DNA of 64,000 nucleotides from Deltaproteobacteria bacterium (GCA_029261895.1 JAJDAK010000064.1:18582-82581); one strand, 5' to 3'; counted from the stretch's first letter, positions 1 through 32,077 are shown. The notes: generated by a model from the letters alone, not told the origin. Program-made: numbers and translations.

Positions 1-3000
1 CGACCTTCCTATTGGGCGTGAGTGGGAGCGCTTCGAGAGAGATGAACTGCGACGGAATCATGTATGCGGGCAGGGCCTCTGCCAGATATCCACGCAACTC
101 GTCGGGTGCATCCAGTGTACCCACTACGTAGGCGACGAGCGCATCGGTCCCGGTCGAATCCTTTCTGCCGACAACAACAGCGTCGCGGATCTGATCGTGA
201 CGAAGCAGAAGCGATTCAATTTCCCCTAGCTCGATACGGTGACCTCTAATTTTTACCTGATGGTCGGTACGTCCCAGAAACTCGACTCCGCCGTCGTTCC
301 GAAGTCGGGCAAGGTCGCCGGTTCGGTAGAGGCGCTCCTTGCTATTCGGCTTAAACGGATGGGGAACGAACCGCTGTTGTGTAAGCTCGGGTTGTCCGCG
401 ATAGCCTCGCGCAAGCCCGGCACCGCCAATGTAGATTTCGCCGGTCGCGCCAACAGGTACCGGCTGTTGTTTGGGGCTCAAAATCAGAAGCTGCGTCTCC
501 GCGATGGGAGCGCCTAGCGAGATGTATGTGGATCCGGTTTCAACTCGTTTGACGGTAGACCAAATGGTCGTTTCAGTCGGGCCGTAGAGGTTCCAAACCT
601 CCCCGCAGTTCTGTGTCAACCACTCCGCGAGGTCCAGCGGGAGTGCTTCACCTCCACAGAGGACCCGCAGGCTCGGATGACCCGTCCAGCCAGAATCGAC
701 CAGCATTCGCCAAACGGAAGGGGTGGCTTGCATCACACTCACTCCGTGCTGGAGTAGCGCGCGTGCGAGTAGCTGCGGATCGCGAACGGTTTCGGAGTCA
801 GCGATCACCACCCGCGCTCCAGTGATCAACGGAAGGAATAGTTCCAAGCCCGATATATCAAACGAGAGCGAGGTAATGGCGAGTAGCGCGTCGTTATCTC
901 GAAGCCCGGGTTCTGCTTGCATGGAACGGAGAAAATTCAGTAGGGCGCGATGTTCTATTTCGACACCTTTCGGACGACCCGTAGAACCAGAGGTATAGAG
1001 CACGTAGGCTAGATTCTCTCCGCCAATCGATCGATGCGGGGCGGTGGTGGGAAAGTCCGCGGCGGCGAGCATGATGGCGTCAAGATCTAGGACTTCGCCA
1101 GCGGAACTCGAGGCGAATACTGCGCGGTTCTGTTTCTGAGTGATCAGAATCTCGGCGCCACAGTCTTTGACCATGAATGCGAGCCGATCGCTGGGGAAAC
1201 TCGGATCCAACGGCACATAGGCGCCGCCTGACTTAAGCACCGCAAGCAAAGCGACGAGCATGTCGACGGAGCGCTCTACACCGATTCCTACGGTTGTCTC
1301 CGTATCGATGCCCAACCGATCTAGATAATGTGCGACCGCGTTCGCGCGTCCGTCCAGCTCAGCGTAGGTTAAGCTCTGCGTCGCGTCCTCTACGGCGATC
1401 GCATCCGGGGCGGTTATGACCTGTTTTTCGAACGCATCGATCCATGTGGGTTCAGCGAGCGGCAGAGGGCGACCGTAAAGACTGGCAACGTGGCTGTTAC
1501 GTTCTGCTGACGTGAAGAGTTCGAGATCACTGAGCGCGCAGTCTGGCGCCGCGACGATGCTCTCAAGGAGCGTTTGGAAGTGCCGTGCCATGCGTTCAGC
1601 AGTCGCGTCCTCAAAGAGGTCTGTGCTGTACTCGAGCTTCCCCTGTAGCTCCCCGTTGTTTTCAAAGAATAGAAGGTTGAGATCGAAGATACAGCCACCT
1701 CCATCAACGAGGAGGCGGTCTGCAGCCAGTCCAAACCGATCGAAGTCCTGGCTGTCAAATGCGCGATTCATACCAACACCGACTCGGACTACGGGATCGC
1801 GCCCACCGTCATGGGCGCGCTGCAAATCCGCAACCAGGCGATCGATGGGTACGTCCTGATGCGCGTAGGCGTCGAGACAAGTTTCACGCACGCGCTCAAG
1901 CAAATCTCGGAAGCTCGGGTCGTTTGCAAGGTCTGTGCGAAGCACCAACGTATTAACAAAGAAGCCGACTGATTCACGAACCTCGGAATTCCGGCGCGTG
2001 GAAACAGGCGCGCCGATCGTGATATCGCACTGTCCCGAATATCGGTGCAGTAGGGTCTTGAGTGCAGCAACAACGCTCATGAATAGCGATACGCCTTGCT
2101 GCTTAGCAATCTCAGCTAAGCCCTCGCGTACATGGTTTGGAACTTCGAAGAAGACGGCTGCTCCGCCCAAGCTTTCGCCGGAAGCAGAAGGATAATCTGA
2201 AGGAAGCTCCAATGTTTCCATGCCGCTGAGCTTTTCTAGCCAGTACTCGCGCTGTGGCGCGATTAGATTATCCAGTCGCCCTTCATGCCAGCGGGCGAAG
2301 TCGGCATACTGGATTGGAAGAGCCTCGAGGTCATCCCCCGCATAGAGCTGGAAGAGCTCTCGAACGAGGACGTGCATCGATTCAGCATCGGAGACGATAT
2401 GGTGCATGGTCAATAGAAGCAGGTGATCGTCTTCGGCGAAACGCACGGCACGTACGCGTAACAACGGGGCTTGCCCGAGATCAAAGGGCGTACTGGATTC
2501 CTGTGCTGCGATGACGCGAGCGGTTTCATCTCGCTGATCGATATTTAGATTTTGAAGATCTTGGAAACCCAGTTCAAGTGTTGAAACCGATTCCACGATT
2601 TGCGCGTGCGTCGTGAGCTCCGATGCGAAACGCGTACGTGTCGTTTCGTGTCGCGAACCCAATTCGCGGACGGCAGCTTTGAGTTTGTCGAGATCGAGAG
2701 CGCCGTGCAGGCGAAATGCAATGGGTACGTTGTACGCGGCGGTATTGGAATGTAGCTGATCCAAGAACCAGAGACCCGCTTGTGCCGGAGCCAGCGGGAA
2801 CCGATGTACTTCTTCCGCGTCTCTCTGTAGGGGTGGGATCGGATCTGGCTCGATCATCCGGAATTCGTGTGATGAAACTTGAGCGCTGAGTGCGAGCGCG
2901 AGCGAACGCGGTGTGGGATGCTCCCAGGTGAGCCGGTTGCTTATACGTCGATTGAGCCAGTCACCCAGTTCGACCGCGAGACCGATTGCTCGCGCGGAAT

Positions 3001-4916
3001 CGAGTCCATAGGAATCGAATTGCTCGTCGGGATCGATTTCGTCAACGTCAAGACCACAGATACCCGCGAGTCGCTCGACCAGTAATGACTCAATGGCTGA
3101 GGTGTCCAGACCGCTGCTGTCTTGTTCAGTCGTTTGGTCGGCTGTGCTTGGTTCAGACCATTCAGCAACAATTGCCAGTTCGCTGCTGAGAAACTGGTTC
3201 CGACACAAGCGCCGTTGAATCTTGCCACTCGATGTCTTGGGAATACTGCGTGCTTTGACCAGGACGACGGCGTGGGGTGCAACGTCGTGCTCAGCGATAA
3301 TCTGCCGACGGATGAGTTGTAAAACCTCTTTGGGTTCTAATCCCTCAACGACGTTAACTTCCTGGACTACAACGAGCTTCTCTTCGTTATCGTGCTCGAT
3401 CGAAAATGTGGCACTGCAGCCTGGCCGAACTGCAGCGTGGACTGAGTCACAGCTGAATTCGATGTCTTGTGGATAGTGATTGCGCCCTCGGATGATGATT
3501 AGATCCTTGAGGCGACCTGTGATGTAGAGTTCGTCGTCGTGGAAGAATCCAAGATCGCCAGTGCGTAAAAACGTTTGGTGATTATCGGACGAAAGTCGGG
3601 CACCAAAAGTCTCTTGGCTCTCCTCGGGTCGATGCCAGTAGCCGGAAGAGACACTCGGTCCAGAAAGCCAAATCTCACCAATTCGGTCCGGCGCTACGGG
3701 TTCGTGAGATTCAGGGTCTACGACCTCCGCCCGCAGGTCGTCCCGCGGCTGACCTTGCCCAACAAGTACGCGAGCTACCGCATTCGCATCGGCGATCTTG
3801 ATCTCATTGTTCTCAAGCGCATCTGCGTCCAAGCGAGCAACACCGAGCGGGGCATCTAACTCGCCACCGGTCACCATGAGCGTCGCTTCGGCGAGTCCGT
3901 AGGCCGGTCGAAAGGCGTTTTGCCGAAAGCCACAATCTGCAAAGACGGAGGCAAAACGTTCAAGTGTTTGATGACGAACAGGCTCTGAACCCACCATCGC
4001 GACCTGCCAACTGCTCAAGTCCAATTTAGCGCGATCGTCCGCTCCAATTCGTCGTACGCAATAGTCGAACGCGAAGTTGGGGCCGCCGCTAAGGGTTCCA
4101 CGATAGTGTGAAATAGCGCGCAGCCAGCGTAGAGGTTCCTGTATGAAAGCCTCGGGTGGCATAAAGACCGAATGCCCGCCGCAATAGACCGTCTGAATCA
4201 CATTCCAGATCAAACCCAGATCATGAAAGAGGGGGACCCAGCTAACCATGACGGATCCCGGTATGCGTCCCCATGCATTTCGAAGCATCTCGGAGTTTGC
4301 AGTTAAATTGCCGTGGCTCACCACAACGCCCTTGGGTTCGCCCGTTGAGCCTGACGTGTACTGCAGGTAGGCAGGCGAGTCAGGCCGCGCTACGAAATCA
4401 AACGCATCAGCAAAGCCTTCGAGGAGGCTATCAGTGGGTAACCAAGTACAGCCTTTGAACTTAGGTGCGTTTGCTTCGATCTCATGGCTGCGAGCTGCAA
4501 GCTCCGCGTTCGTCAGGACTAGCCGTGCACCTGAGTCAACCAAGATGCTCTGCAACCGCGGCAAAGTACGCGCCGCTCGGGCCAGATTGGGAGCGGGCGT
4601 GGGTACCGCAATGGCACCGGCATAGAGACAGCCGTAGAGCGCCACGATGAACTCGATCCCCGACGGAAGGATTACTAAAACGGGTTTGCCCTGTGCCTCA
4701 TGCTTGCGCAGCTCAGCCGCAACCTGCCTGGCACGACGGTCAAGTTCCGAGTAGGAGAGATTTATTTCGCCAGTGTTGTTTTCACCGTTAGGTAGAAACG
4801 TAAACGCGATCTTATCTGCGTTCAACCGAGAGAACCTACGGAGCCTATCTACGATAGGTTCAGGATTCAGCTCTTGACCTTCCTGCTGGGGCAATTCAAA
4901 AACCTCGTCAGGCATG
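1..4916 (-). CDS. Non-ribosomal peptide synthetase, partial (C-terminal part runs off the window start). Domain order from the N-terminus is fatty acyl-AMP ligase (FAAL), carrier (T), condensation (C), adenylation (A).
   Basis: A continuous minus-strand frame with no stop between 4916 and 1 (absent from the ORF track because it is open at the window edge). The start is ATG at 4916-4914 (MPDEVFELPQQ). FAAL/AMP-binding motifs are YLQYTSGSTGEPKGVVVSHGNL and a later YTSGSTGRPKGV with GELYIGGAGLARGY and a TGDLARL-type core. The carrier motif is FDSYGLDSARAIGL. The condensation region has MHHIVSDAES (HHxxxDG-like). Confidence 0.85.
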
Positions 4917-4980
4917 TACCGTGGCAGTCAATGCGATGCGCAACATCACGTTAACTGAGTTGTTGCAACCTGATTCACCA

Positions 4981-4990
4981 CTATTATAAG
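4981..4990 (-). promoter_or_regulatory. Candidate -10 box (TATAAT on the minus strand) about 65 nt upstream of the NRPS start codon, in the AT-richer 4920-5120 intergenic region
   Basis: The minus strand reads ...cggaatctcttataatagtgg... The -35 is weak (atccac). Confidence 0.2.
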
Positions 4991-5304
4991 AGATTCCGCT
5001 ACGAGGTGGATTCCGATCGCAACCACGAACTATCATTTGAAATCATCCGCGCGTATTCCCCGATTATTGTGTCAATATTTGAGTAGGTTCGATCCCAAGC
5101 GCAATTTTACACCGACTCATTTAGCACTAGATACACGGGCAATATGAGGAGAGTGGTAAACCCAGCATATAGGTGTCGAGCGCGGATGCACGATGCGCAA
5201 CTGTCGCGCAGCGTCGTTGGGGGTTGCGCGTGTGGTGTGCAAAGTATCCGCGCTAAACACGCAGCTATGCAGCATGCTGCGTGCTTCTACGGCTGTTTGA
5301 TTTT

Positions 5305-6765
5305 CTAGATCAGCGTGAAGCTGTTCAGGTGAAGTTGAATACTGTGTCCGCAGGATTCTTTCGTTACAGCGTGTTGGGCGAGTTGCGGGTCGTTGGACGT
5401 GGCGATGGTTCGGCGGCCATCGGGAAGATCGCAGAGTGCGATCGTTGTTGCCGGTGCGTTGTTCATATACAACACGGTGTAGGTCGCGATCGTGGCCGGC
5501 CCCCTTGCTTCGTCTGCGAGTTCCAAGCGTGGAGTGTCGGCACAGGTGGCTTCCGTCACGTCGTCGAAATGGAATTTGCTGGTTCGCGGTTCGGTGGACC
5601 ATAGGCTTACGCCCTGTTTGGTCAGAATGCCGCTCACCGCGGTCGCCATACCCAAGCTTCCCGGATCCGCGCGTAGGACTTCGACCATTCGCGGGAGGGC
5701 TTGAAGTACGTAGTGGTTGAACGGTCCGCCTGCGAACGTCATTCCACCCGTTAGTGTCAGTGCGCGTGCCGCGGTCAGGCCGAGCTCCTGGAGTTGGACG
5801 CGAACGGCTGCAGGAAAGCAGCTATAGAGTTCGAGATGCTGGACCTCAGAGATTTCAGCAGAGATACGTCCTAACGCGGTCGTGGCCGCGTGTGCGAAAC
5901 CCGGGCATCGCTCGATTTGACGCCGGCGTGAAAGCGCACATACATCGTTGGAGTCTGCGATCGCCAGTGGAATGACCCAACGCTCGCGAGGAATACCAAA
6001 ACGCTGGGCTGTTGCGACCGAACACAGAATTAGTGCGGCGGCTTGGTTTACGTTCCATTGCGAAGCGAGCATTTTTGTATAGGGAAATGCAAGTTCGCCG
6101 CTACGCAGAATCATTTCCGCATCGACAGGTTCTTGGGTCCACGCCTGAGGGTTTGTTTGTGCGACGCGGCTATAGGCAGCCCATAGTCCGGCGAGTTCTT
6201 CCCGGTGGCGCCTTACGTCTTGGCCGGAGTTCGCACGGAGTGAGTTTTCGATCATTGCGTATTGCGTAACCGGTCCCGCCAAGCCCCTTTGAATCTCGAG
6301 CAGGTCGATCACCAGCGCGTCTGGTTTAATGAGCGAATCAGGTTTGCACGGAGCTTGCTCCGTGTTTTTCACGTTAATACCGAGACGTTTCGCTTGTTGC
6401 TCGCGATATTTCGCCTCTGCGCCAACGACGAGTGCAATCTCCGACTTACCGTTCGCAATGTCTCGAGCCGCGCGTCCGAGCAGCGTGGTCTGCAGAACGC
6501 CAACGTCTGCGATTTCTGTGCGCGCGCGAGTCGCGCCGAGTTGATCTGCGAGCAACCGACCCGGATCGGAATACGACCAGAGCCCACGTGGGATCCGGAT
6601 CGAATCCGCGTTCGTGATCAGTTCGTGAGACCCCGCATCTTTCGCGGCGGCGTCCAACGCGCTGAGCATTAACGCCAACGCTTCCCTGGCACGCGCCGGA
6701 TCGGCTTCGTACTCTTGAACGGCTGCGGCGCCCACCAGAACGGGCGTACTTGGGTCGATCGTCAT
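5305..6765 (-). CDS. Thiolase-fold (SCP-x / lipid-transfer-protein type) protein. The catalytic N-terminal Cys is not obvious.
   Basis: ORF 5305..6855 trimmed to ATG 6765 (MTIDPSTPVLVGAAAVQEY) with a GAGGGGG RBS. The N-terminus is thiolase-like, an IALVVGAEAK segment resembles the VGxEKM region, and the C-terminus has a GGMTFAGGPFNHY glycine-rich loop. No NxxCxSG motif was seen. Confidence 0.55.
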   Translation of the reverse strand: MTIDPSTPVLVGAAAVQEYEADPARAREALALMLSALDAAAKDAGSHELITNADSIRIPRGLWSYSDPGRLLADQLGATRARTEIADVGVLQTTLLGRAARDIANGKSEIALVVGAEAKYREQQAKRLGINVKNTEQAPCKPDSLIKPDALVIDLLEIQRGLAGPVTQYAMIENSLRANSGQDVRRHREELAGLWAAYSRVAQTNPQAWTQEPVDAEMILRSGELAFPYTKMLASQWNVNQAAALILCSVATAQRFGIPRERWVIPLAIADSNDVCALSRRRQIERCPGFAHAATTALGRISAEISEVQHLELYSCFPAAVRVQLQELGLTAARALTLTGGMTFAGGPFNHYVLQALPRMVEVLRADPGSLGMATAVSGILTKQGVSLWSTEPRTSKFHFDDVTEATCADTPRLELADEARGPATIATYTVLYMNNAPATTIALCDLPDGRRTIATSNDPQLAQHAVTKESCGHSIQLHLNSFTLI

Positions 6766-6888
6766 CGGGCCCCCTCGAGGTTGCGCTAGTTGGGTTCGCC
6801 ACGAAGGCGTCGATATCGATCGAGTGTACACGGCAGATAGCAGCGTTGACACCACGGTGATTCCGGCCGACCATCGCCAACCGATCGT

Positions 6889-6965
6889 GGCCCAGTAGCT
6901 CAGCTGGATAGAGTACTAGCCTCCGGAGCTAGGAGTCGCAGGTTCGAACCCTGCCTGGGTCACCA
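6889..6965 (+). tRNA. tRNA-Arg (anticodon CCG) with encoded CCA
   Basis: Cloverleaf: acceptor GGCCCAG/CTGGGTC, D-arm GCTCAGCTGGATAGAG, anticodon stem CTAGC / loop CTCCGGA / GCTAG, T-arm GCAGGTTCGAACCCTGC, discriminator A, CCA. Confidence 0.9.
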
Positions 6966-7014
6966 TCACCGTCGGATCCTGGTCGTACGGCTTGTGGAGG
7001 CGCTACGGGCTGCT

Positions 7015-12444: not shown

Positions 12445-13004
12445 GCACAGGCAAAAGCCACGAAGCGGCCGTGATGGGAAAGAGAAACGGGAAGACCGCG
12501 CTGTAGATCGCCAATGTGTAGCCACGGCATCCGGCGCTTTCGCTCGATCGTGATATTCGAAGCAGCGATGCCCCAGCGCTTGGCCAGCTGTTCGCGGACG
12601 AGACGGCGTACCTCGATACTCTGGGCATCGCTGTCGAGTGCGAAGTCAAAACAACGCAGAGCATGGAAGGGTTCGGTTTCAGACCGCGTCTGGGCAATCG
12701 CGTGAACGTAGTCCGGTCCGTTAAAAAAATGGACGGTGAGGTCGTGTTGCTGATGGATTAGGTTTGCCTTATGGCCGCGGATGGGTCCGCAGACGAAACA
12801 GCGCGGAGAAAATGGCAGTCGTGAGTCCATACGGCGTAATGCTTTGAATGCGGCTTCCTTGGCTGCCCAAAACATCCACCGGGCACGCATGGGGTCGGTC
12901 GACTGTTCAATCATGTCCCGCTCCGAATCTGCGAATACCCGCGAGTCGAATCTCGGATGCGTCTGTTTCGCGCTGGATAGGTCGACCAGGTCATTACCGA
13001 TCAT
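12441..13004 (-). CDS. 4-prime-phosphopantetheinyl transferase, Sfp/EntD type
   Basis: Motifs GNDLVDL and WAAKEAAFKA (PPTase motifs 2 and 3). Start chosen at MIGNDLVDL. Overlaps the carboxylase start by 4 nt and the upstream acyltransferase stop. Confidence 0.75.
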   Translation of the reverse strand: MIGNDLVDLSSAKQTHPRFDSRVFADSERDMIEQSTDPMRARWMFWAAKEAAFKALRRMDSRLPFSPRCFVCGPIRGHKANLIHQQHDLTVHFFNGPDYVHAIAQTRSETEPFHALRCFDFALDSDAQSIEVRRLVREQLAKRWGIAASNITIERKRRMPWLHIGDLQRGLPVSLSHHGRFVAFACA

Positions 13005-13737
13005 CGAAGTATTCTCGCTCCATGTGTGCAAGCCGCCCCACGATTTGCTGGGAGATATCCCGTGCCGCGCGCAGGCCACTACTTTCTGTTTTAGGGTCGA
13101 AGAGTTCTATTATGACTGAGAAGCGTTCATTTCGGTGCGGCAGGTTGGAATAGGTTCCCTGTCCATCGCCGCGTAAATAGACACAAAGCACGCGACAGCG
13201 GGGAATTGAATCGATCAAGCCGCCGACGCCGTAGGCAGCGTTCGTTACGTCTATGCGACCGCTGCGGCTGCGTCCCCCTTCGGGGAATACCATGCCGACC
13301 TCACCGTTTTCGACGCAGAAACCAAATCGACTCATCGTGGCCTGAACTTCCTTTCGAGGCCCGCCACGTTGAATGGGTATGCACTTGAATAGGTAGGATA
13401 GGACGCGAAGCGCGATGCCGTGAGAGAAGTTTGTGCGCTCTGGAACGTTCCATGGCAACGCATGGAAGTTCCTGAGGTACCATCCCGGAGACCCTAGAGC
13501 CCAAGCGATGATGGCGGAATCCACCATCGTCAAATGATTCGGGCAGATCATCAACGGAGCGTCATTGGAGTCGAGGATCCGCCGATATTCGCGTCGCAGG
13601 TGGACTTGATCCCGAATCTGATATCCGAAGCCAAAACGCATGAGCATGATTACCGAAGGAACCGTCAGCGGTGCGAATATTAGGCTGATCCAACGCTGGA
13701 GTTGTATGCGTAGATATGTGCCTGCAGAAACGTTCAC
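12994..13737 (-). CDS. PlsC-family (lysophospholipid/glycerol-3-phosphate-type) acyltransferase
   Basis: HxxxxD motif NHLTMVD and acceptor-binding motif VFPEGGRS. GTG start forms a GTGA overlap with the ACP stop. Confidence 0.8.
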   Translation of the reverse strand: MNVSAGTYLRIQLQRWISLIFAPLTVPSVIMLMRFGFGYQIRDQVHLRREYRRILDSNDAPLMICPNHLTMVDSAIIAWALGSPGWYLRNFHALPWNVPERTNFSHGIALRVLSYLFKCIPIQRGGPRKEVQATMSRFGFCVENGEVGMVFPEGGRSRSGRIDVTNAAYGVGGLIDSIPRCRVLCVYLRGDGQGTYSNLPHRNERFSVIIELFDPKTESSGLRAARDISQQIVGRLAHMEREYFDDR

Positions 13738-13985
13738 GCGCCGAGCTTCGACTCGATCAGTTGTACCGCATTCTCGACGGTTTCCACGAGATCGATGTCT
13801 TCATCCTCGATCTGGATGTCGAACACATCTTCAAACTCGAGGATGATGTCTACGAGTCGTGCGGAGTTTATTTTTAGGTCATCGAGCAAGTGCGTCTTGA
13901 GGGAAATCTTATCGCGCGCGTCTTCGTTTCGAATAAACGGCGCAAGGATGGAAATGATTTTGTCAAAGATATCTTGTCGATTCAT
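13734..13985 (-). CDS. Acyl carrier protein
   Basis: 83 aa, acidic, with DDLKINSARLVDII (DSL-type phosphopantetheine attachment Ser). RBS AAGGAGG lies 7 nt upstream. Confidence 0.85.
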   Translation of the reverse strand: MNRQDIFDKIISILAPFIRNEDARDKISLKTHLLDDLKINSARLVDIILEFEDVFDIQIEDEDIDLVETVENAVQLIESKLGA

Positions 13986-14012
13986 GAATGGCCTCCTTAG
14001 GGTGAAGTGAAT

Positions 14013-15293
14013 CTAGGCGTTCTGCCAATTACCGATCATCAAACACGCATTCACATCGCCGAATCCGAACCCAGCTTTCGCTGCGATCCGTAGTTCGGGT
14101 GCGTCGCGCGTCGTACGGGGTATTGAATGCGAATACCTTTCGATCTCAGGATGAACATCCTCGCAGTTGATCGAAGGATGAATGAAACCTTCGTAGAGCA
14201 TTTGGACGGTAGCAATCGATTCAATCGCACCCGCCGCCCCGAGACTGTGACCGATCATCGATTTGGTGGAGGTGATCGGAGGCAGGTGATCGGGCGTCTG
14301 CTCCAACGCTGTCGCCCAAGCCGCGACTTCCTTTGGATCTGCTCCCGTGGCGGTGAGGTGACCGTTGATGAGACCTACTTCCGATCCGCTGATTCCCGCA
14401 TCTTGCAATGCTGCACGGATACAACGCACAACACCGTTGGGATTAGGTGCGCTCATACTGCCGCCACCACGGTGTCCACCACAGTTGAGCGCGGTTCCTA
14501 GGATCTCCGCGTAGATTCGTGCACCGCGTTGAACCGCGCTCTCGTAGGACTCGAGCAAGAGTACTCCGGCGCCCGCGCTGGGGACGAATCCACCCGCGGA
14601 AGCACTCATGGGTCGGGAAGCTTCTTCTGGGCGATCGTTGAATCCTCGACAGAGCACACGCATGGAATCAAAACCAGCATAGATGTAATGGCTTGCAGCT
14701 TCGGCGCCGCCGCAGAGCATGCGTTCCGCGAGTCCCTGGCGAATTCGATTCGTGCCTTCGGCGATAGCTTCGGTACCTGTGCTACACGCGCTCGAATTGG
14801 TGGTGACTTGGTTCCCGAGTGCAAGCAACCCGGAGATCCGTGCGGAGATACCACTTGCCATGACCTGTTCGACGACGGTACTTCCGAGACGACGAATCTT
14901 GCCCGCATTCGTGAGGGGTACGATGCGTTCGGCGATCGTGTCCATGCCACCAATGCCTGTTCCCAAAATGGCACCTGTATCCCAGTCGACGCGGTCGCTT
15001 TCGGCCTCAGGTCGTTTGAATCCCGCATCTTCCCAGGCATCCACCGCTGCGATACTTGCCAGACGATGACTTGAATTCATGGCGAGCAACTGCTCGCGAC
15101 TGAAATAACGTGATGCGATCTCATCGACACCTTGAGGAATGCCTGCGACCTGGCAACCGAAGCCGAGTTCAGCCATGATAGGATTGAGTCGAATTCCTGA
15201 CTTGCCTTCGCGGAGTGACTGCGTAAACGCGTGTAGATCGGATCCGTTGGCCGCGACGACGCCCATACCCGTGATGACGACCCGCCGTCTCAT
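14013..15293 (-). CDS. Beta-ketoacyl-ACP synthase I/II (FabB/FabF family)
   Basis: N-terminal VVITGMGVV. An internal segment reads TNSSACSTGTEAIAEG in the supplied translation, and the text Cys-His-His triad is HLTATGADPKE ... IGHSLGAAG. 426 aa. Confidence 0.85.
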   Translation of the reverse strand: MRRRVVITGMGVVAANGSDLHAFTQSLREGKSGIRLNPIMAELGFGCQVAGIPQGVDEIASRYFSREQLLAMNSSHRLASIAAVDAWEDAGFKRPEAESDRVDWDTGAILGTGIGGMDTIAERIVPLTNAGKIRRLGSTVVEQVMASGISARISGLLALGNQVTTNSSACSTGTEAIAEGTNRIRQGLAERMLCGGAEAASHYIYAGFDSMRVLCRGFNDRPEEASRPMSASAGGFVPSAGAGVLLLESYESAVQRGARIYAEILGTALNCGGHRGGGSMSAPNPNGVVRCIRAALQDAGISGSEVGLINGHLTATGADPKEVAAWATALEQTPDHLPPITSTKSMIGHSLGAAGAIESIATVQMLYEGFIHPSINCEDVHPEIERYSHSIPRTTRDAPELRIAAKAGFGFGDVNACLMIGNWQNA

Positions 15294-15727
15294 AGGGGAA
15301 CTCCGGTTCCAGAAAGCGTACCTGCACAGACCAGCGAACCACCGGGGAGGCGCATTTCGGCTGAGACGCGGAGCGTCCGCCGTCGATAAAAGACCTTCTT
15401 CGCCGAGGTCGTGACCTCAGTGCCGGGTAGCACGATTCCTGCGAACTCTACGTCCGCATGGGAGAAGAGGGTTGTAATCTTGGCGTCGGGATCCTCACGG
15501 TGCAATAGATAGAGTCCGAGCGCGACCACTGCCGCTTGCGCCATGGTTTCAATGAGAATGACGCCGGGTGTAATCGGCCGACTTGGGAAATGTCCGCGAT
15601 AGAAATCGGCATCTTCACGATAGCGATAAGTAGCGACGACATGATCTTCGTCGAGTTCTAGGATGCGATCGATAAAGCGAAACGGTTCTTGCTGTGGGAT
15701 CGCGGCCAGTATTTCTTCTTTTGTCAT
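15290..15727 (-). CDS. fabZ: 3-hydroxyacyl-ACP dehydratase, FabZ-like hotdog
   Basis: GHFPSRPITPGVILIETMAQ motif. ATGA overlaps on both flanks. Confidence 0.8.
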   Translation of the reverse strand: MTKEEILAAIPQQEPFRFIDRILELDEDHVVATYRYREDADFYRGHFPSRPITPGVILIETMAQAAVVALGLYLLHREDPDAKITTLFSHADVEFAGIVLPGTEVTTSAKKVFYRRRTLRVSAEMRLPGGSLVCAGTLSGTGVPL

Positions 15728-16320
15728 GACTCTCGCACGAGCCTCCCGCCGCGAGAATGTTTTGAAGGCCGTGGATAGTCGGGATAATCGATATTTCGAA
15801 ACGTTCCGACCTTGGCACGTTGAACGCTGTAAATCGGTTCGTCATCGACAAAGAGGGTCGCGTCGCCAAGAACCACTGACGCTCCGACGTTCGTCAGCTC
15901 GGTATAGCGCCGCACATCGACTTCGTAACGTATGAGTCGATCGTGCGGACGAACCTGTCCAAAGAATTCAACCTCGCCACAGCCCAACGCACGTCCTGCC
16001 CCAAGACCACCGCTCCAAGCACAGAAGAAACCAAGCAGTTGCCAGATTCCATCGACGCCCAAGCAACCCGGCTGGACAGGATCGCTCGCAAAGTGACATT
16101 GAAAGAACCAATCATCGAGCCTGACGTCGTACTCGGCGACGATTCGACCGCGTGTTTTCTGTCGATCGATCTCTAAGATGCGGTGAATCATCAGCATCGG
16201 AGGTAAGGGGAGGCGCGCTTTGAATTCGGCAGGAGCGTCAGAGATGAGCGTCCCATTTGCGAAGGCAAGCAGTTCCAATTGCGTGAAACTTTTGCGGTCT
16301 CGAAATTCGACGTAGTTCAT
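15724..16320 (-). CDS. fabA: 3-hydroxydecanoyl-ACP dehydratase/isomerase, FabA-like
   Basis: FFQCHFASDPVQPGCLGVDG matches the FabA active-site region. Start chosen at MNYVEF (ATGA overlap with the KAS III stop). The ORF extends to 16356 if the first Met is used. Confidence 0.75.
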   Translation of the reverse strand: MNYVEFRDRKSFTQLELLAFANGTLISDAPAEFKARLPLPPMLMIHRILEIDRQKTRGRIVAEYDVRLDDWFFQCHFASDPVQPGCLGVDGIWQLLGFFCAWSGGLGAGRALGCGEVEFFGQVRPHDRLIRYEVDVRRYTELTNVGASVVLGDATLFVDDEPIYSVQRAKVGTFRNIDYPDYPRPSKHSRGGRLVRES

Positions 16321-17312
16321 CGCGAATCCTCGGAACGGAGTAGGTAACTTGCCCAAGTCAAGCCTGCGCCTACGCCTGCGACGGCAATATCATCGATGGT
16401 GTCCCATTTTTCCCAACGCATCGAGATGACCGATGCGGAGCTGGCGCAGCCGGTGTTACCGAAAAACTCGACATTGCTGTGATGCTGTGACGTTGAAACT
16501 CCGGCAGCATGGCAAACGGATTCGAGCATACGTAGGTTGGCCTGGTGTCCGACGAAGTGGAAAGATCGGCCGGCGGTCTCATGCTGCTCGCGCAATGAAC
16601 GCACCGCTTGACTCATACGCCTGATTCCGAATGCCTGAACGGTTCGGCCTTCTTGATAGAAGTGGCCGATACGCGGCACGACCACTTTATCTGCGGCGCT
16701 GGGCTTAGATTGGAGCGACGGATTGAGCACACGAAATCGACCGGGGCGCCGGGTAGAGATCACCGCGGCCGCGGCACCATCGCCCCAGAGTACAGACGAC
16801 GAGCGATCCGCGTAGTCGACGGTCTTGGTGAGGGTATCGACTGCGACCAATAGGAGATACTCGGGAAGTGCATCGCTGCGCATCATCGACAGGAGATATA
16901 GCTGGGCGTAGAAACTGGTGCAGGCTGACCGTACGTCAAAACTCGGTACGTCGAGCCCTAGGGCTTGCGCGATATTGCAGGCTTCAGCGGGAGAGGCGGT
17001 ATCTGTCGCAGAGCTACCAGCGATGACCATGCCGATGGCTTCTTTCGGAACGGCTGCCCGTCGGAGCGCGTGCTCCGCGGCCCGTGCGCCAAGTTCTGCG
17101 TTCGATAGCGTCGCAGCTTCAATCGCTGCGCGTGGGTTTTGGTTTCGCGTTTCCCGAATGTAGTCGAGAGGCAAAACAGTTCGGCGTGAGCGTATCCCAA
17201 CGCGTTCGAGGATCCACTCATTCGAAGTTCCAATATCGAGCGATTCGAGGAAGGCGTTGGTTATTTCGTTTTCAGGATGGCAATGGCCGAGGCCGTGAAT
17301 GAAGGTATTCAA
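16317..17312 (-). CDS. fabH: 3-oxoacyl-ACP synthase III (FabH-like)
   Basis: Thiolase-fold KAS III with GNTGCASSA and C/H/N-type residues. Probable TTG start (MNTFIHGLGH) overlapping the upstream stop as TTGA. The alternative is ATG at 17372, which overlaps by 64 nt. Confidence 0.7.
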   Translation of the reverse strand: MNTFIHGLGHCHPENEITNAFLESLDIGTSNEWILERVGIRSRRTVLPLDYIRETRNQNPRAAIEAATLSNAELGARAAEHALRRAAVPKEAIGMVIAGSSATDTASPAEACNIAQALGLDVPSFDVRSACTSFYAQLYLLSMMRSDALPEYLLLVAVDTLTKTVDYADRSSSVLWGDGAAAAVISTRRPGRFRVLNPSLQSKPSAADKVVVPRIGHFYQEGRTVQAFGIRRMSQAVRSLREQHETAGRSFHFVGHQANLRMLESVCHAAGVSTSQHHSNVEFFGNTGCASSASVISMRWEKWDTIDDIAVAGVGAGLTWASYLLRSEDSR

Positions 17313-18256
17313 CGGGTCGCTCCGGAAATATGTTCGCCGCCGTCGACCCGGATGATTTCGCCGTTGATCCATGCGGCGTCATCCTGAGCGAGCAAGTGGA
17401 TTACGTTTGCAACATCGCGCGTCGTCGTGAGTCGACCGAATGGATTACGCGTCCTGGCTTGCGCTTTGAGGTGGTCGCTCCCCGGGATGGCTTTCAGTGC
17501 AGGTGTCTCCGTAATACCTGCTTGAATAATGTTGGTTCGGATACCGTATGGCGCAAATTCAAGCGCCATTGAGCGCGCAAGTGCTTCGAGCGCGACTTTG
17601 GCAGCCGATACTGCGGCATAGCCTTTCCAGGCGACCTTGTTTCCCTCGCTCGTAAGTCCGAAGACCCGTGCGTCGTCTGCAAAGAGATTCCTCGCGTGGA
17701 GACTTTGCACCCAACCCAACAAACTTGTTCCCATACTGTGGATGGTGCGACCGAAGTCTTCCTCGTCGAGAAACGAACGGGTTGGGTATTCGGGGGCTGT
17801 GGCCAAAGCATGTAGCCCGTCATGTCCTGCATTGAAAGATTCGTTGGCGAGGTCTTCCAGTCGGGAGGGCTCAACTCCGAGCCGTTGGGCCAGTTCATTT
17901 CGACTCGTATTGAGACGGGGTTTCTCTGCGACCAGCAGCTTCAAGTTTCCAAATGCGATTGAGTGCAGGAACAGCCTCACCCGACCCTGCGATCCGAGCT
18001 CAGACGTCAATTGATCCAGCACTTCTTCACGCTTCTCGGGGTTGAGTGCGTCGAGGTTAAGACAGAGAACTCGATGGCCGTGGCTGCGAACCTTTTCAAA
18101 CTCCGGTTCGATCTGTGCCATTGCGCCACGACGATCGCGGTGAATCAGGCAAAGATTCATGCCGTTTTCAGCCAGTTTATGCGCGGTCGCCAGGCCAAAG
18201 CCGCTCGAGCCGCCAAGGATCAACGCCCATTGATTCGGACCAAAGCGATCTACCAC
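17309..18256 (-). CDS. Enoyl-ACP reductase of the FabI/FabL/FabV SDR lineage
   Basis: GGSSGFGLATA nucleotide-binding loop, Y-x6-K catalytic motif (YAAVSAAK) and GIRTNIIQAG. GTG start. Confidence 0.7.
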   Translation of the reverse strand: MVDRFGPNQWALILGGSSGFGLATAHKLAENGMNLCLIHRDRRGAMAQIEPEFEKVRSHGHRVLCLNLDALNPEKREEVLDQLTSELGSQGRVRLFLHSIAFGNLKLLVAEKPRLNTSRNELAQRLGVEPSRLEDLANESFNAGHDGLHALATAPEYPTRSFLDEEDFGRTIHSMGTSLLGWVQSLHARNLFADDARVFGLTSEGNKVAWKGYAAVSAAKVALEALARSMALEFAPYGIRTNIIQAGITETPALKAIPGSDHLKAQARTRNPFGRLTTTRDVANVIHLLAQDDAAWINGEIIRVDGGEHISGATR

Positions 18257-18299
18257 TGCTCCCCCCCTGCCTACTGAGACCGTTCGTAGACGTAATTAA

Positions 18300-18343
18300 T
18301 GACTCTCAGTCACATCGGTGGCTGAGAATATGACTCAGAGTCA
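18300..18343. promoter_or_regulatory. Two 13-bp palindromes, TGACTCTCAGTCA (18300-18312) and TGACTCAGAGTCA (18331-18343), 31 bp centre to centre. Putative operator pair.
   Basis: Both are perfect TGACT-N3-AGTCA dyads. One lies in the promoter spacer and one at about +5 to +17. Confidence 0.45.
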
Positions 18344-18354
18344 TGGAGAGTCAA
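18325..18354 (-). promoter_or_regulatory. Sigma70-like promoter for the lipid cassette. On the minus strand it reads TTGACT-N18-TATTCT, and the spacer is occupied by a TGACT-N3-AGTCA palindrome.
   Basis: Minus strand: TTGACTctccatgactctgagtcaTATTCT. The -35 is plus 18349-18354 and the -10 is plus 18325-18330. Confidence 0.4.
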
Positions 18355-18547
18355 GTCCTGCTGTAGGTAATTGAAAAATATGAACTTTCTGGTACTCGAG
18401 GCGAGCAGATTTTTAATCAACCAGGAATCTGGGGGGTAAATGGGCTCCGAAGAATCTCATTTGAGCGGAATGTACTTGAGCGTGGAGGAGCGTGGCCTAA
18501 GTCGTTATACAGTGACCGCTTAGGGCTTGGGTATGTCACTTTGATAG

Positions 18548-18576
18548 CGCAGGTTCGAACCCTGCCTGGGTCACCA
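18548..18576 (+). repeat. 29-bp direct repeat identical to the 3-prime end of tRNA-Arg (6937-6965). Putative att-type island boundary.
   Basis: cgcaggttcgaaccctgcctgggtcacca occurs at both sites in the same orientation. The second copy has no D-arm or anticodon arm upstream. Confidence 0.7.
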
Positions 18577-22200: not shown

Positions 22201-22243
22201 TGCTATCGTGGAATATGACGGACCGTCAGATAGGAGTTCCGCG

Positions 22244-23500: not shown

Positions 23501-23535
23501 CGCTGAGAGGCCAGTTGTCGTGATAGGATTTGAAT

Positions 23536-27453: not shown

Positions 27454-27534
27454 GCCATACGCATCGGAATTCAAGCCTTTGGAGCTGTAGCTGCTTGCAA
27501 AGATCGCGTGGCGGCGTTGGCGTAGAAGAGGGCT

Positions 27535-31287: not shown

Positions 31288-31466
31288 GGATCTATTCGAC
31301 TCGCTTCCTTGATTGTTGTATTTTACCCTCACTGTAACTGTACCTTGAGACTTTGAGACCTGACAACATAAATGTGGGAAATCAGCGTGTTCGGTGGCAA
31401 TATCGGTGCGCTAAATGGGAATTCGATCGAAGCTGTAGGTGTAACCCCGCAGTAGGAGGGTCAGGG

Positions 31467-32075: not shown

Positions 32076-32077
32076 TC

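What the first reader, a model, noticed from the sequence alone, without database searches (positions are those of the whole stretch)
1..18576. Self-contained lipid/lipopeptide biosynthetic locus built around a FAAL-NRPS and a dedicated fatty-acid synthase cassette
All eleven genes are co-oriented on the minus strand, and most junctions are 4-nt ATGA/GTGA/TTGA overlaps. The genes are a FAAL-T-C-A NRPS start module, a thiolase-fold protein, a 1.8k-aa single-chain acyl-CoA carboxylase, Sfp-type PPTase, PlsC acyltransferase, ACP, KAS I/II, FabZ, FabA, KAS III and a FabI/FabL-type reductase. This is not the housekeeping fab cluster (fabH-fabD-fabG-acpP-fabF). It contains its own carboxylase, PPTase and acyltransferase, which implies a dedicated acyl chain, possibly unsaturated because both FabA and FabZ are present. 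That chain would be handed to the FAAL-NRPS to give a lipopeptide or lipoamino acid, or esterified by PlsC. The combination of a long-chain-type carboxylase with a FAAL is also reminiscent of mycolate-type Claisen chemistry, but that is speculation.
Basis: partly seen in the sequence, partly recalled or inferred. Interest (0 to 1): 0.75.

Follow-up and report, generated by a model that had tools for sequence, protein, structure and literature searches.

The report
Accessory fatty-acid cassette beside unrelated NRPS
The eleven genes are real, but nine of them form a stand-alone fatty-acid-synthesis cassette found without the peptide synthetase in about 50 uncultured Myxococcota-like genomes, so its adjacency to the synthetase here looks like juxtaposition, not one lipopeptide pathway.

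Summary
The gene content is confirmed. On the minus strand lie FAAL-T-C-A NRPS (truncated at base 1), TLP1-type thiolase-like protein, 1809-aa BC-BCCP-CT carboxylase, PPTase, PlsC-family acyltransferase, ACP, KAS I/II, FabZ, FabA, KAS III and a FabL-type enoyl reductase.

The region is not one operon. Only the nine genes from 18256 to 7015 are tightly coupled, with six 4-nt overlaps. A plus-strand tRNA-Arg (6889-6965) and a 249-nt gap separate them from the thiolase. A further 389-nt gap precedes the NRPS.

The nine-gene cassette recurs as a unit in 51 loci from Myxococcota, "Deltaproteobacteria" and Binatia MAGs. None of these has the thiolase or an NRPS downstream. None of 81 NRPS-anchored loci has the cassette.

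In this window the cassette is bracketed exactly by a 29-nt direct repeat of the tRNA-Arg 3' end, which resembles island att sites, but no integrase is present.

The carboxylase is a eukaryote-type multidomain ACC, not an LCC, so the mycolate idea fails. The cassette lacks FabD and FabG, and its ACP is unlike AcpP. I read it as an accessory FAS that off-loads through its own acyltransferase.

The NRPS A domain is predicted to activate glycine. The rest of that cluster lies off-window and could not be recovered.

The parts
1..4915 (-). NRPS start module FAAL-T-C-A(Gly), C-terminally cut by the window edge. Approximate domain spans: FAAL 3167-4864, T 2894-3085, C 1499-2800, A 1-1432.
   Evidence: Pfam and NCBIfam. 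Start codon and intact frame. Core motifs. Stachelhaus code DILQLGLIWK, read from an alignment to GrsA-PheA with one register corrected by hand.
5305..6765 (-). Thiolase-like protein type 1 (TLP1 / PRK08257 family), a stand-alone gene
   Evidence: PF18313 at 30.6 bits. PRK08257 models. PDB 4egv at E=7e-47. The nearest relatives are 56% identical and sit in unrelated contexts.
6889..6965 (+). tRNA-Arg(CCG) gene, opposite in orientation to all eleven protein genes. Its last 29 nt (6937-6965) are copy 1 of the direct repeat.
   Evidence: ARAGORN. Rfam RF00005 at 62.9 bits. Repeat D2.
7015..12444 (-). Single-chain eukaryote-type multidomain acetyl/acyl-CoA carboxylase (BC, BCCP, ~600-aa central region, CT). 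Last gene of the cassette.
   Evidence: Pfam. Biotin motif at K622. The CT and central part match yeast and Chaetomium ACC best. Homologues of about 1860 aa at 50-57% identity.
12441..13004 (-). 4'-phosphopantetheinyl transferase, subtype unresolved (alternative GTG start at 13079)
   Evidence: PF01648 at 41 bits. Weak TIGR00556 and TIGR00516 hits. No PDB hit. Conserved in position in relatives.
12994..13737 (-). PlsC/LPLAT-family acyltransferase with HX4D and FPEGG motifs (alternative ATG start at 13641). Proposed off-loading enzyme.
   Evidence: PF01553 at 39 bits. Weak match to the Aas acyltransferase domain. Motifs.
13734..13985 (-). Dedicated ACP (Ser in ...KINSARL...), not AcpP-type
   Evidence: PF00550. 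Below all NCBIfam ACP cut-offs. E. coli AcpP gives no tblastn hit at E<=1e-3 to this or any of the cassette ACPs.
14013..15293 (-). Elongating ketosynthase KAS I/II (Cys-His-His), intermediate between FabF and FabB
   Evidence: Pfam. FabF and FabB models below cut-off. Best PDB hits are FabF and FabB.
15290..15727 (-). FabZ-type dehydratase (His/Glu)
   Evidence: PF07977. FabZ models below cut-off. Precomputed ApeI/ApeP-like Pfam hits. Motifs.
15724..16320 (-). FabA-type dehydratase/isomerase (His/Asp)
   Evidence: PF07977 at 134.6 bits. NF003509 at 200 bits, above the cut-off of 124. Motifs.
16317..17312 (-). KAS III / FabH-like initiating ketosynthase (Cys-His-Asn), TTG start
   Evidence: PF08545 and PF08541. 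FabH models below cut-off. Triad.
17309..18256 (-). FabL-type enoyl-ACP reductase (Y213-x6-K220) with an insertion of about 50 aa. First gene of the cassette.
   Evidence: Pfam. FabL is the best NCBIfam model. PDB 3oic FabL alignment. Motif.
18300..18344 (.). Two operator-like palindromes upstream of the cassette: ATGACTCAGAGTCAT at 18330-18344 and TGACTCTCAGTCA at 18300-18312. The ATGAC-N5-GTCAT form is also found upstream of the cassette in L002, L003, L052 and L058.
   Evidence: It occurs nowhere else in the 64-kb window.
18489..18576 (+). tRNA-like remnant. Copy 2 of the 29-nt repeat lies at 18548-18576, preceded by a matching 5' acceptor strand but a different body.
   Evidence: Rfam tRNA scores only 12.9 bits, E=8. 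The fold has an acceptor stem, a T arm and one long hairpin, with a non-significant z-score.

Best explanation
The 18.6-kb region is a juxtaposition of three independent units.

(A) Cassette, 7015-18256. This is a nine-gene, translationally coupled accessory type II fatty-acid-synthase cassette. Its order is FabL-type ER, FabH-like KAS III, FabA, FabZ, KAS I/II, dedicated ACP, PlsC-family acyltransferase, PPTase and eukaryote-type multidomain ACC.

Inferred working:
1. The ACC makes malonyl-CoA.
2. The PPTase activates the cassette ACP.
3. The host FabD loads malonate onto the ACP.
4. KAS III primes and KAS I/II elongates.
5. The host FabG reduces. Half of the related cassettes carry their own FabG.
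6. FabZ and FabA dehydrate, with FabA able to set a cis double bond.
7. The FabL-type enzyme reduces the enoyl intermediate.
8. The finished acyl-ACP is consumed directly by the cassette's LPLAT acyltransferase to acylate a lyso- or glycerolipid-type acceptor.

The product would be a specialised, probably monounsaturated, membrane lipid rather than a free acid. Expression is governed from a conserved ATGAC-N5-GTCAT operator. The TetR regulator that follows the ACC in the nearest relatives is missing here. The cassette is bracketed by a 29-nt direct repeat of the tRNA-Arg 3' end, so it probably reached this site by tRNA-targeted integration or recombination.

(B) A stand-alone TLP1-type thiolase-like gene of unknown role.

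(C) The first gene of a lipopeptide NRPS cluster. A FAAL loads a free fatty acid, and the first amino acid is predicted to be glycine. The cluster continues leftwards off the window and does not depend on the cassette.

Shown: gene content, coupling, conservation of the cassette as a unit, absence of NRPS and thiolase from related loci, the tRNA and its repeat, and the family assignment of the ACC.
Inferred: the product, the acceptor, the borrowing of FabD and FabG, and the integration event.
For: Domain and motif assignments.

Coupling: six 4-nt overlaps occur only inside the cassette, against gaps of 249 nt and 389 nt outside it. An opposite-strand tRNA-Arg lies between ACC and thiolase.

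Conservation: 51 cassette loci among 75 ACC-anchored loci scored by tblastn (83 fetched). Of these, 24 have FabA+FabG, 19 have FabA only (as here) and 8 have FabG only. None has FabD, TLP or NRPS. A reduced KAS III-acyltransferase-ACC form sits behind the same operator in L058.

Reciprocal test: 0 of 81 NRPS-anchored loci carry cassette genes. The closest NRPS relative heads an NRPS-PKS cluster without fab genes. TLP relatives lie in unrelated contexts.

Not housekeeping: the ACP, KAS, FabZ and FabH all score below the NCBIfam equivalog cut-offs. E. coli AcpP has no significant match to any cassette ACP. The flanks are not shared with other cassette loci, and M18-ACAD lies on the opposite side of the cassette in L004 and L059 compared with L002.

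Operator: conserved upstream of the cassette only. TetR follows the ACC in L002-L010 and L059 but is absent from the whole window.

Island signature: an exact 29-nt direct repeat at 6937-6965 and 18548-18576, the only long exact repeat in 26 kb.

ACC family: and PMC6491548.
Against: - No experiment or lipid data exists for any member, and no literature on this cassette was found.
- Adjacency and co-orientation of the NRPS with the cassette are real. Cassette and NRPS have the most similar codon usage of the gene sets compared (JS 0.085; GC3 0.58 for both, against 0.645 for housekeeping genes). They could therefore share a history.
- No integrase lies between the repeats, and base composition does not mark the cassette as foreign.
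- I could not inspect the rest of this genome or any related genome for a second fab, acpP or acc set. 'Accessory' therefore rests on sequence divergence and patchy distribution, not on a direct count.
- The acceptor of the acyltransferase is unknown. The acyltransferase and the PPTase have no detectable solved-structure relatives.
Confidence: 0.55

Rival explanations
1. The cassette, thiolase and FAAL-NRPS form one lipopeptide or lipoamino-acid gene cluster. The cassette builds a special acyl chain, which the FAAL activates and the NRPS couples to glycine and further residues.
For: - All eleven genes are co-oriented and adjacent.
- Cassette and NRPS have the most similar codon usage.
- The FAAL needs a fatty acid.
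- From my own knowledge, some lipopeptide clusters do carry dedicated fab genes, for example fabH4, fabF3 and an ACP in the CDA cluster.
- The TetR found in relatives is missing here, so regulation has changed.
Against: - 0 of 51 cassette loci have an NRPS or thiolase, and 0 of 81 NRPS-anchored loci have the cassette.
- The closest NRPS relative has no fab genes.
- An opposite-strand tRNA and gaps of 249 nt and 389 nt separate the units.
- The operator is not shared.
- No thioesterase is present to release a free acid for the FAAL. The cassette's own acyltransferase is the evident outlet.
- The cassette is bracketed by att-like repeats that exclude the NRPS.
Confidence: 0.15
2. The cassette is the organism's primary (housekeeping) fatty-acid and phospholipid operon in this lineage. 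It would combine ACC, FabH, FabA/Z, FabB/F, FabL, ACP, AcpS-like PPTase and PlsC, with fabD and fabG encoded elsewhere.
For: - It unites essential functions: ACC, initiation, elongation, holo-ACP synthesis and PlsC.
- Multidomain ACC is the essential ACC in S. erythraea (PMC6491548).
- A reduced FabH-PlsC-ACC operon exists in L058.
- No other fab genes were seen in the 64-kb window.
Against: - The ACP is far from AcpP: about 39-50 bits against cut-offs of 66-70, and no tblastn hit from E. coli AcpP.
- KAS, FabH, FabZ and PlsC are all well below the equivalog scores.
- Gene content varies (FabA and/or FabG, with or without the ER, and a three-gene form), and genomic contexts vary.
- 24 of the 75 ACC-anchored loci scored lack a complete cassette. 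Several of these are merely cut by a contig end. Others, such as the Polyangiaceae loci L024 and L040, have a full 10-kb upstream flank and no cassette genes.
- Att-like repeats flank it here.
Confidence: 0.15
3. Mycolate-like chemistry. A long-chain acyl-CoA carboxylase makes an alkylmalonyl unit, which is Claisen-condensed with a FAAL-activated chain.
For: The FAAL domain resembles FadD32-type FAALs (453 bits). A carboxylase and a thiolase-fold protein are nearby.
Against: - The FadD32 score is far below its cut-off of 975.
- There is no Pks13-like condensing enzyme.
- The carboxylase CT groups with eukaryotic ACC CT, not with the LCC, AccD4 or AccD5 types.
- The FAAL is fused to an NRPS T-C-A module with a Gly-type A domain.
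Confidence: 0.03

Closest known systems
Rhizobial acpXL-fabZXL-fabF2XL-fabF1XL-lpxXL cluster, an accessory FAS for the very-long-chain acyl group of lipid A (from my own knowledge)
   Same: A dedicated ACP, a dedicated ketosynthase and dehydratase, and a dedicated acyltransferase that takes the product straight from the special ACP. It relies on housekeeping enzymes for the missing steps.
   Different: It has no ACC, PPTase, FabH, FabA or enoyl reductase. Its acyltransferase belongs to the LpxL family, not the PlsC family. It occurs in a different phylum, and its product is known.
Mycobacterial FAS-II operon fabD-acpM-kasA-kasB-accD6 (from my own knowledge)
   Same: A type II FAS operon with a specialised ACP and elongating KAS enzymes, plus a carboxylase component in the same operon to supply malonyl-CoA.
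   Different: It carries FabD and only a CT subunit (AccD6). It has no acyltransferase, PPTase or FabA, and it elongates FAS-I products.
SACE_4237, the ~200-kDa multidomain ACC of Saccharopolyspora erythraea (PMC6491548)
   Same: A single chain of about 200 kDa with BC, BCCP, central region and CT. Its CT is related to eukaryotic ACC CT, and it is a proposed malonyl-CoA supplier for fatty-acid synthesis.
   Different: It is actinobacterial and essential, and it is not reported inside a fab cassette.
Single-chain long-chain acyl-CoA carboxylase, LCC (Tran et al. 2015, cited from my own knowledge; group III in PMC6491548)
   Same: A single polypeptide carrying BC, BCCP and CT.
   Different: LCC is about 120 kDa and has a different CT clade. 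The window protein is 1809 aa, has a ~600-aa central region, and its CT is most similar to eukaryotic ACC.
FAAL-initiated lipopeptide NRPS start modules of about 2850 aa (FAAL-T-C-A-T-C-A-T) in Acidobacteria, cyanobacteria and myxobacteria
   Same: The domain order is FAAL-T-C-A, and the protein is the first gene of an NRPS(-PKS) cluster.
   Different: At most 43% identity. The downstream modules of the window protein are unknown because the window cuts them off.
E. coli fabA/fabB unsaturated fatty-acid pathway with the TetR-family regulator FabR, and Pseudomonas DesT (from my own knowledge)
   Same: A FabA-type dehydratase/isomerase next to a FabB/F-like KAS. In relatives there is a TetR-family regulator and a palindromic operator.
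   Different: The genes here sit in a single large cassette with their own ACP, ACC and acyltransferase. The operator sequence is different, and TetR is absent from this window.

Membership tests
Canonical housekeeping type II FAS cluster (plsX-fabH-fabD-fabG-acpP-fabF) | AcpP-type ACP (highly conserved, DSLD motif) | tested here: not met
   The ACP scores 38.9 bits against a cut-off of 70.45 on TIGR00517. Its motif is INSA. E. coli AcpP gives no tblastn hit at E<=1e-3 to any cassette ACP.
Canonical housekeeping type II FAS cluster (plsX-fabH-fabD-fabG-acpP-fabF) | FabD and FabG present in the cluster | tested here: not met
   There is no MCAT and no YxxxK ketoreductase among the nine genes. 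FabG is present in 32 of 51 related cassettes, and FabD in none.
Canonical housekeeping type II FAS cluster (plsX-fabH-fabD-fabG-acpP-fabF) | It is the only fab/acc set in the genome | not testable with these tools
   The source genome was not retrievable. No whole-genome access is available for relatives.
Long-chain acyl-CoA carboxylase (LCC) | A single chain of ~120 kDa with an LCC-clade CT domain | tested here: not met
   The protein is 1809 aa (~200 kDa). The best CT hits are yeast ACC CT domains (3tv5, 1od2, 5csk) at E about 1e-17. AccD5/6-type CTs reach only about 1e-4, and no LCC entry appears in the list.
Eukaryote-type multidomain ACC (group V of PMC6491548) | ~200 kDa, BC-BCCP-central-CT, with CT closest to eukaryotic ACC | tested here: met
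   Pfam finds BC, BCCP and CT. Biotinyl-Lys motif. The central and CT parts align to fungal ACC fragments 5i6g and 5i6i and to yeast CT. Several homologues hit PF08326 ACC_central.
Eukaryote-type multidomain ACC (group V of PMC6491548) | Acetyl-CoA (or propionyl-CoA) carboxylase activity | not testable with these tools
   This needs an enzyme assay.
FAAL-initiated NRPS lipopeptide cluster | FAAL-T loading didomain followed by C-A with intact core motifs | tested here: met
   The A-domain code DILQLGLIWK indicates Gly (register corrected by hand).
FAAL-initiated NRPS lipopeptide cluster | A complete assembly line with a terminating TE or R domain | not testable with these tools
   The gene runs off base 1. 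The Logan contig adds only about 1 kb that I could not read. The source was not found in either collection.
FAAL-initiated NRPS lipopeptide cluster | Cassette genes belong to the cluster (recurrent co-occurrence) | tested here: not met
   0 of 51 cassette loci have an NRPS or TLP. 0 of 81 NRPS loci have the cassette. L087 has none.
tRNA-targeted genomic island | An intact tRNA at one end and a direct repeat of its 3' end at the other | tested here: met
   tRNA-Arg lies at 6889-6965. An exact 29-nt repeat lies at 18548-18576 and brackets exactly the nine genes.
tRNA-targeted genomic island | An integrase or recombinase inside the island | tested here: not met
   All coding capacity between the repeats is taken by the nine cassette genes.
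tRNA-targeted genomic island | Atypical composition, or an empty site in relatives | tested here: inconclusive
   GC3 is 0.58 in the cassette against 0.645 in housekeeping genes, but the NRPS and the flank are similar to the cassette. There are no close relatives of the host for inspecting an empty site. Other cassette loci lack flanking repeats and tRNAs, except for a tRNA-Leu after the ACC in L035.
Mycolate-type condensation system (FadD32-Pks13-AccD4) | A FadD32 equivalog plus a Pks13-type condensing PKS | tested here: not met
   The FadD32 model scores 453 bits against a cut-off of 975. The FAAL is fused to NRPS domains, and there is no PKS in the region.
Thiolase-like protein type 1 (TLP1) | A thiolase fold with the TLP1 C-terminal extra domain | tested here: met
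   PF18313 scores 30.6 bits, above the cut-off of 26.1. M. smegmatis TLP1 (4egv) matches at E=7e-47 over residues 3-464. Catalytic residues were not examined.

The most novel reading that the evidence does not exclude
The nine-gene unit is a horizontally mobile 'lipid-synthesis island'. It would be a nearly complete type II FAS with its own ACP, PPTase, eukaryote-type single-chain ACC and off-loading acyltransferase. It would move between Myxococcota-like lineages, here by tRNA-Arg-targeted integration, and install a specialised (unsaturated) membrane lipid. Its widespread, uncharacterised ACC would also be a bacterial relative of the eukaryotic cytosolic ACC outside the Actinobacteria.
Probability: 0.3. 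Interest if true: 0.6.

Novelty: new variant of a known kind. Interest (0 to 1): 0.4.

Why it matters
If the reading is right, genome-mining tools and human readers would wrongly merge this cassette with the neighbouring NRPS into one 'lipopeptide BGC with its own FAS'.

The more interesting object is the cassette itself. It is a conserved, uncharacterised accessory fatty-acid synthase coupled to a eukaryote-type multidomain ACC and a dedicated acyltransferase. It is present in dozens of uncultured Myxococcota, Binatia and 'Deltaproteobacteria' genomes in at least four gene-content variants.

It predicts a specific, testable lipid phenotype in a group with no cultured representatives carrying it. 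It also extends the known bacterial distribution of eukaryote-like ACC. The att-like tRNA repeats suggest that a whole FAS module can be moved as a unit.

Tried and rejected
1. Recovering the rest of the NRPS and the source genome.
- Exact look-ups of the thiolase and the ACC were 'not on record'.
- The KAS look-up gave only a 26.9-kb Logan contig identical to the window. It would add about 1 kb to the left, which lay outside the 10-kb flank.
- All four proteins I looked up (thiolase, KAS, ACC, reductase) are nameless singletons on a 101,752-bp NCBI contig.
- The genome-contig scan and the metagenome-contig scan (best hit 56%) did not return the source.
- The NRPS homologue search did not return the self protein.

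2. Naming the organism. No source names were available. Only the relatives' record titles were (Myxococcota, Deltaproteobacteria, Binatia, and some records titled 'uncultured Spirochaetales').

3. Consensus promoter and terminator scan of 4600-7300. Nothing was found.

4. PDB sequence searches for the PPTase and the acyltransferase gave no hits.

5. Five of the ten allowed literature searches. Only the S. erythraea ACC paper was relevant.

6. A link between the cassette and exosortase/PEP-CTERM genes. The adjacency holds only in the L002 clade, so I rejected it as a general association.

7. A link between the thiolase and either the cassette or the NRPS. Relatives sit in unrelated contexts.

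8. Flanking direct repeats around the cassette in L002 and L003. None were found.

9. Reading the second repeat copy as a real tRNA. I rejected this: ARAGORN does not call it and Rfam gives 12.9 bits.

10. Codon usage as evidence of foreign origin. Inconclusive.

Full report
**Observation**

Six-frame ORF listing and profile searches confirm eleven co-oriented minus-strand genes between bases 1 and 18256. Read 5'->3' on the minus strand they are:
- an SDR at 17309-18256 whose only catalytic motif is Y213-x6-K220, and whose best solved relative is B. subtilis FabL;
- a FabH-like KAS III with a Cys-His-Asn triad;
- a FabA that passes the NCBIfam FabA cut-off;
- a FabZ;
- a Cys-His-His KAS I/II;
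- an 83-aa ACP;
- a PlsC-family acyltransferase with HX4D and FPEGG motifs;
- a PPTase;
- an 1809-aa BC-BCCP-CT carboxylase with an EAMKM biotin site;
- a TLP1-type thiolase-like protein (PDB 4egv, E=7e-47);
- an NRPS that starts at ATG 4915, reads FAAL-T-C-A, and runs off base 1 with no stop and intact core motifs.

Six of the ten junctions are 4-nt start/stop overlaps.

**What the description missed**

All six overlaps lie inside the nine-gene block 18256->7015. Between the carboxylase stop (7015) and the thiolase start (6765) there are 249 nt. That gap contains a plus-strand tRNA-Arg(CCG) gene at 6889-6965 (ARAGORN; Rfam 62.9 bits). Between the thiolase and the NRPS there are 389 nt.

The last 29 nt of the tRNA (6937-6965) recur exactly at 18548-18576, about 290 nt upstream of the first cassette gene. 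This is the only long exact repeat in the first 26 kb.

The second copy keeps the 5' acceptor strand but has a different body. It is not a tRNA by ARAGORN, and Rfam gives only 12.9 bits. The nine genes are thus bracketed precisely by a direct repeat of a tRNA 3' end, the classical attL/attR signature of tRNA-targeted islands. There is no integrase between the repeats, and base composition is not distinctive.

**The cassette is an autonomous, conserved unit**

Homologues of the carboxylase at about 50-57% identity are numerous. Two were looked up, L002 and L003. Both show the same order, ER-KAS III-FabA-FabZ-KAS-ACP-acyltransferase-PPTase-ACC, followed by a TetR gene rather than a thiolase and NRPS.

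A scan of one genome per GTDB species with an alignment of the CT domain returned 80 loci, all from MAGs titled Myxococcota, Myxococcales, Deltaproteobacteria or Binatia, plus some titled 'uncultured Spirochaetales'. tblastn with the window's proteins gave these results:

| Cassette type | Loci |
|---|---|
| FabA + FabG (a ketoreductase inserted between FabA and FabZ; Pfam) | 24 |
| FabA only, as in this window | 19 |
| FabG only | 8 |
| Total with a cassette | 51 |

- No locus has a FabD.
- No locus has a thiolase or NRPS homologue within the 10 kb downstream.
- A reduced KAS III-acyltransferase-ACC form exists in L058.

The flanks of the window's cassette are not shared with any other cassette locus. 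Within the closest clade the cassette even lies on opposite sides of the same neighbours.

**Regulation**

An ATGAC-N5-GTCAT palindrome lies upstream of the cassette in the window (18330-18344), with a second imperfect copy at 18300-18312. The same palindrome form lies upstream of the cassette in L002, L003, L052 and L058. In L002 and L003 it sits next to a TTGACA -35-like hexamer. It occurs nowhere else in the 64-kb window, including upstream of the thiolase or NRPS.

The TetR gene that overlaps the ACC stop in the closest relatives (L002-L010, L059) has no homologue anywhere in the window. I infer that the palindrome is the TetR operator, and that this copy of the cassette has lost its cis-encoded repressor at the tRNA junction.

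**The carboxylase**

The C-terminal 861 aa match eukaryotic ACC carboxyltransferase domains best. Yeast 3tv5, 1od2 and 5csk score E about 1e-17, and Chaetomium ACC fragments 5i6g-5i6i also cover part of the central region. AccD5/AccD6-type CTs reach only about 1e-4.

Size (~200 kDa) and architecture match the multidomain ACC SACE_4237 of S. erythraea. Its authors place that enzyme with eukaryotic ACCs and separate it from the LCC group. They also show that it supplies malonyl-CoA for fatty-acid synthesis (PMC6491548). The FAAL scores far below the FadD32 cut-off and is fused to NRPS domains. The LCC/mycolate idea is therefore not supported.

**Housekeeping or accessory?**

The indirect evidence favours 'accessory':
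- The ACP is far from AcpP. It falls below every NCBIfam ACP cut-off, and E. coli AcpP gives no tblastn hit at E<=1e-3 to any of the cassette ACPs.
- KAS, FabH, FabZ and the acyltransferase are all well below the equivalog or typical scores.
- FabD is always missing, and FabG is missing here, which implies a second FAS to borrow from.
- Gene content and genomic context vary between carriers.
- Among the 24 ACC-anchored loci without a complete cassette, some are merely cut by a contig end. Others, such as the Polyangiaceae loci L024 and L040, have full upstream flanks and no cassette genes.

The rest of the window (39-64 kb) is ordinary chromosome: lptCAB, rpoN, ptsI, metK, ahcY, secDF, cysS and uvrBC, with no further fab genes.

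**The NRPS and the thiolase**

The nearest NRPS relatives are only 35-43% identical. They are ~2850-aa FAAL-T-C-A-T-C-A-T proteins from Acidobacteria, cyanobacteria, myxobacteria and Tumebacillus. The best one is the first gene of an NRPS-PKS cluster with no fab genes upstream.

A scan of JGI metagenomes with the window's A domain found 80 loci at no more than 56% identity. None of them, nor L087, carries cassette genes.

I aligned the A domain to GrsA-PheA, whose sequence I recalled from memory and checked against its residue numbering. After placing one gap so that GGE aligns, the specificity code reads DILQLGLIWK, the canonical glycine code. The product would therefore begin as an N-acyl-glycine.

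Thiolase relatives (55-56% identity) sit in unrelated contexts. The role of the thiolase here is unknown.

**Mechanism proposed (inferred)**

1. The ACC makes malonyl-CoA.
2. The PPTase converts the cassette ACP to its holo form.
3. The housekeeping FabD loads malonate.
4. KAS III primes and KAS I/II elongates.
5. The housekeeping FabG reduces.
6. FabZ and FabA dehydrate, with FabA able to isomerise at C10 and the FabB/F-like KAS able to carry the cis chain on.
7. The FabL-type enzyme reduces the enoyl intermediate.
8. The acyl-ACP is used directly by the PlsC-family acyltransferase, whose weak best NCBIfam match is the acyl-ACP-dependent Aas acyltransferase domain, to acylate a lysolipid-type acceptor.

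No thioesterase is present, so release of a free acid for the FAAL is not provided for. This logic parallels the rhizobial AcpXL/LpxXL system and the mycobacterial acpM-kasA-kasB-accD6 operon (both from my own knowledge). It differs from both in composition.

**Verdict**

- Observation: confirmed.
- Interpretation: partly supported. A dedicated, non-canonical FAS cassette is supported. A single lipopeptide locus built around the NRPS is not, and the LCC/mycolate idea is not.
- Best explanation: three juxtaposed units, with confidence 0.55. The integrated-BGC and housekeeping readings each get about 0.15.
- Novelty: the cassette is an uncharacterised variant of known accessory-FAS logic, and the NRPS is an ordinary new member of FAAL-initiated assembly lines.
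- Interest: 0.4.

The most novel reading not excluded is a mobile lipid-synthesis island carrying a eukaryote-type ACC.

Noticed in passing
window 6889-6965 (+), with repeats at 6937-6965 and 18548-18576: tRNA-Arg(CCG) lies antisense between the carboxylase and the thiolase. Its 3' 29 nt are repeated exactly just upstream of the cassette, so the repeat brackets the nine genes like att sites. No integrase is present.
   Followed up: yes
window 18489-18576 (+): The second repeat copy is part of an 88-nt tRNA-like element with an acceptor stem, a T arm and one long hairpin in place of the D and anticodon arms. It is not called as a tRNA, and its origin is unexplained.
   Followed up: partly
window 18300-18344; L002 ~3735; L003 ~3793; L052 ~1448; L058 ~4126: A conserved ATGAC-N5-GTCAT palindrome lies upstream of the cassette in five genomes and is probably a TetR operator. 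The TetR gene that follows the ACC in the closest relatives is absent from the whole window.
   Followed up: partly
L011-L083: The cassette exists in at least four gene-content variants: FabA+FabG, FabA only, FabG only, and a reduced KAS III-acyltransferase-ACC form in L058 (L072 looks similar by tblastn only). The enoyl reductase is also not universal: L052 starts at KAS III directly behind the operator.
   Followed up: partly
L024, L040 (Polyangiaceae MAGs; full 10-kb upstream flank) and some other ACC-anchored loci: The eukaryote-type ~1850-aa ACC also occurs without any fab cassette. This enzyme class is therefore widespread in Myxococcota-like genomes beyond the Actinobacteria described in PMC6491548.
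   Followed up: no
L035 11627-11713: A tRNA-Leu gene lies immediately after the ACC stop in one other cassette locus. The upstream end of that cassette was outside the fetched DNA, so a flanking repeat could not be checked.
   Followed up: no
L002 and L003 16.3-21 kb; window 20116-20814: Exosortase (EpsH/EpsI) and several small PEP-CTERM/TSP_3 proteins follow the cassette in the L002 clade, and a PEP-CTERM protein lies 2 kb upstream in the window. The adjacency is clade-specific.
   Followed up: yes
L034 13865-15406: A radical-SAM protein of the CofH/MqnC type lies about 2 kb downstream of the ACC in a FabA+FabG-type locus. I did not check whether this recurs.
   Followed up: no
L084 6794-11124: The closest named-context thiolase relative sits in an Amidohydro_2 - TLP - AMP-binding ligase row. 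The window also has an Amidohydro_2 (22208-23500) and an acyl-CoA dehydrogenase (23530-24687) on the far side of the cassette. These would be only about 5 kb from the thiolase if the cassette were removed.
   Followed up: no
record titles of L009, L013, L014, L015, L022 and others: Several MAGs titled 'uncultured Spirochaetales/Spirochaetaceae' carry cassettes of the same gene order as those in Myxococcota- and Deltaproteobacteria-labelled MAGs, with similar identity to the window's proteins. Those taxonomic labels look unreliable.
   Followed up: no
window 24673-31332 and 31353-33115: This stretch holds a CHASE2-GAF histidine kinase/response-regulator hybrid, two ~630-aa proteins without Pfam matches (one with a weak TSP_3 hit) and two HEAT-repeat proteins. 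None was examined further.
   Followed up: no
window 5240-5300 (minus strand, just after the thiolase stop): A hairpin CACGCAGC-N10-GCTGCGTG followed by TTTAG looks like a weak terminator between the thiolase and the NRPS. The consensus scan did not flag it, because its loop exceeds 8 nt and it has few T residues.
   Followed up: no
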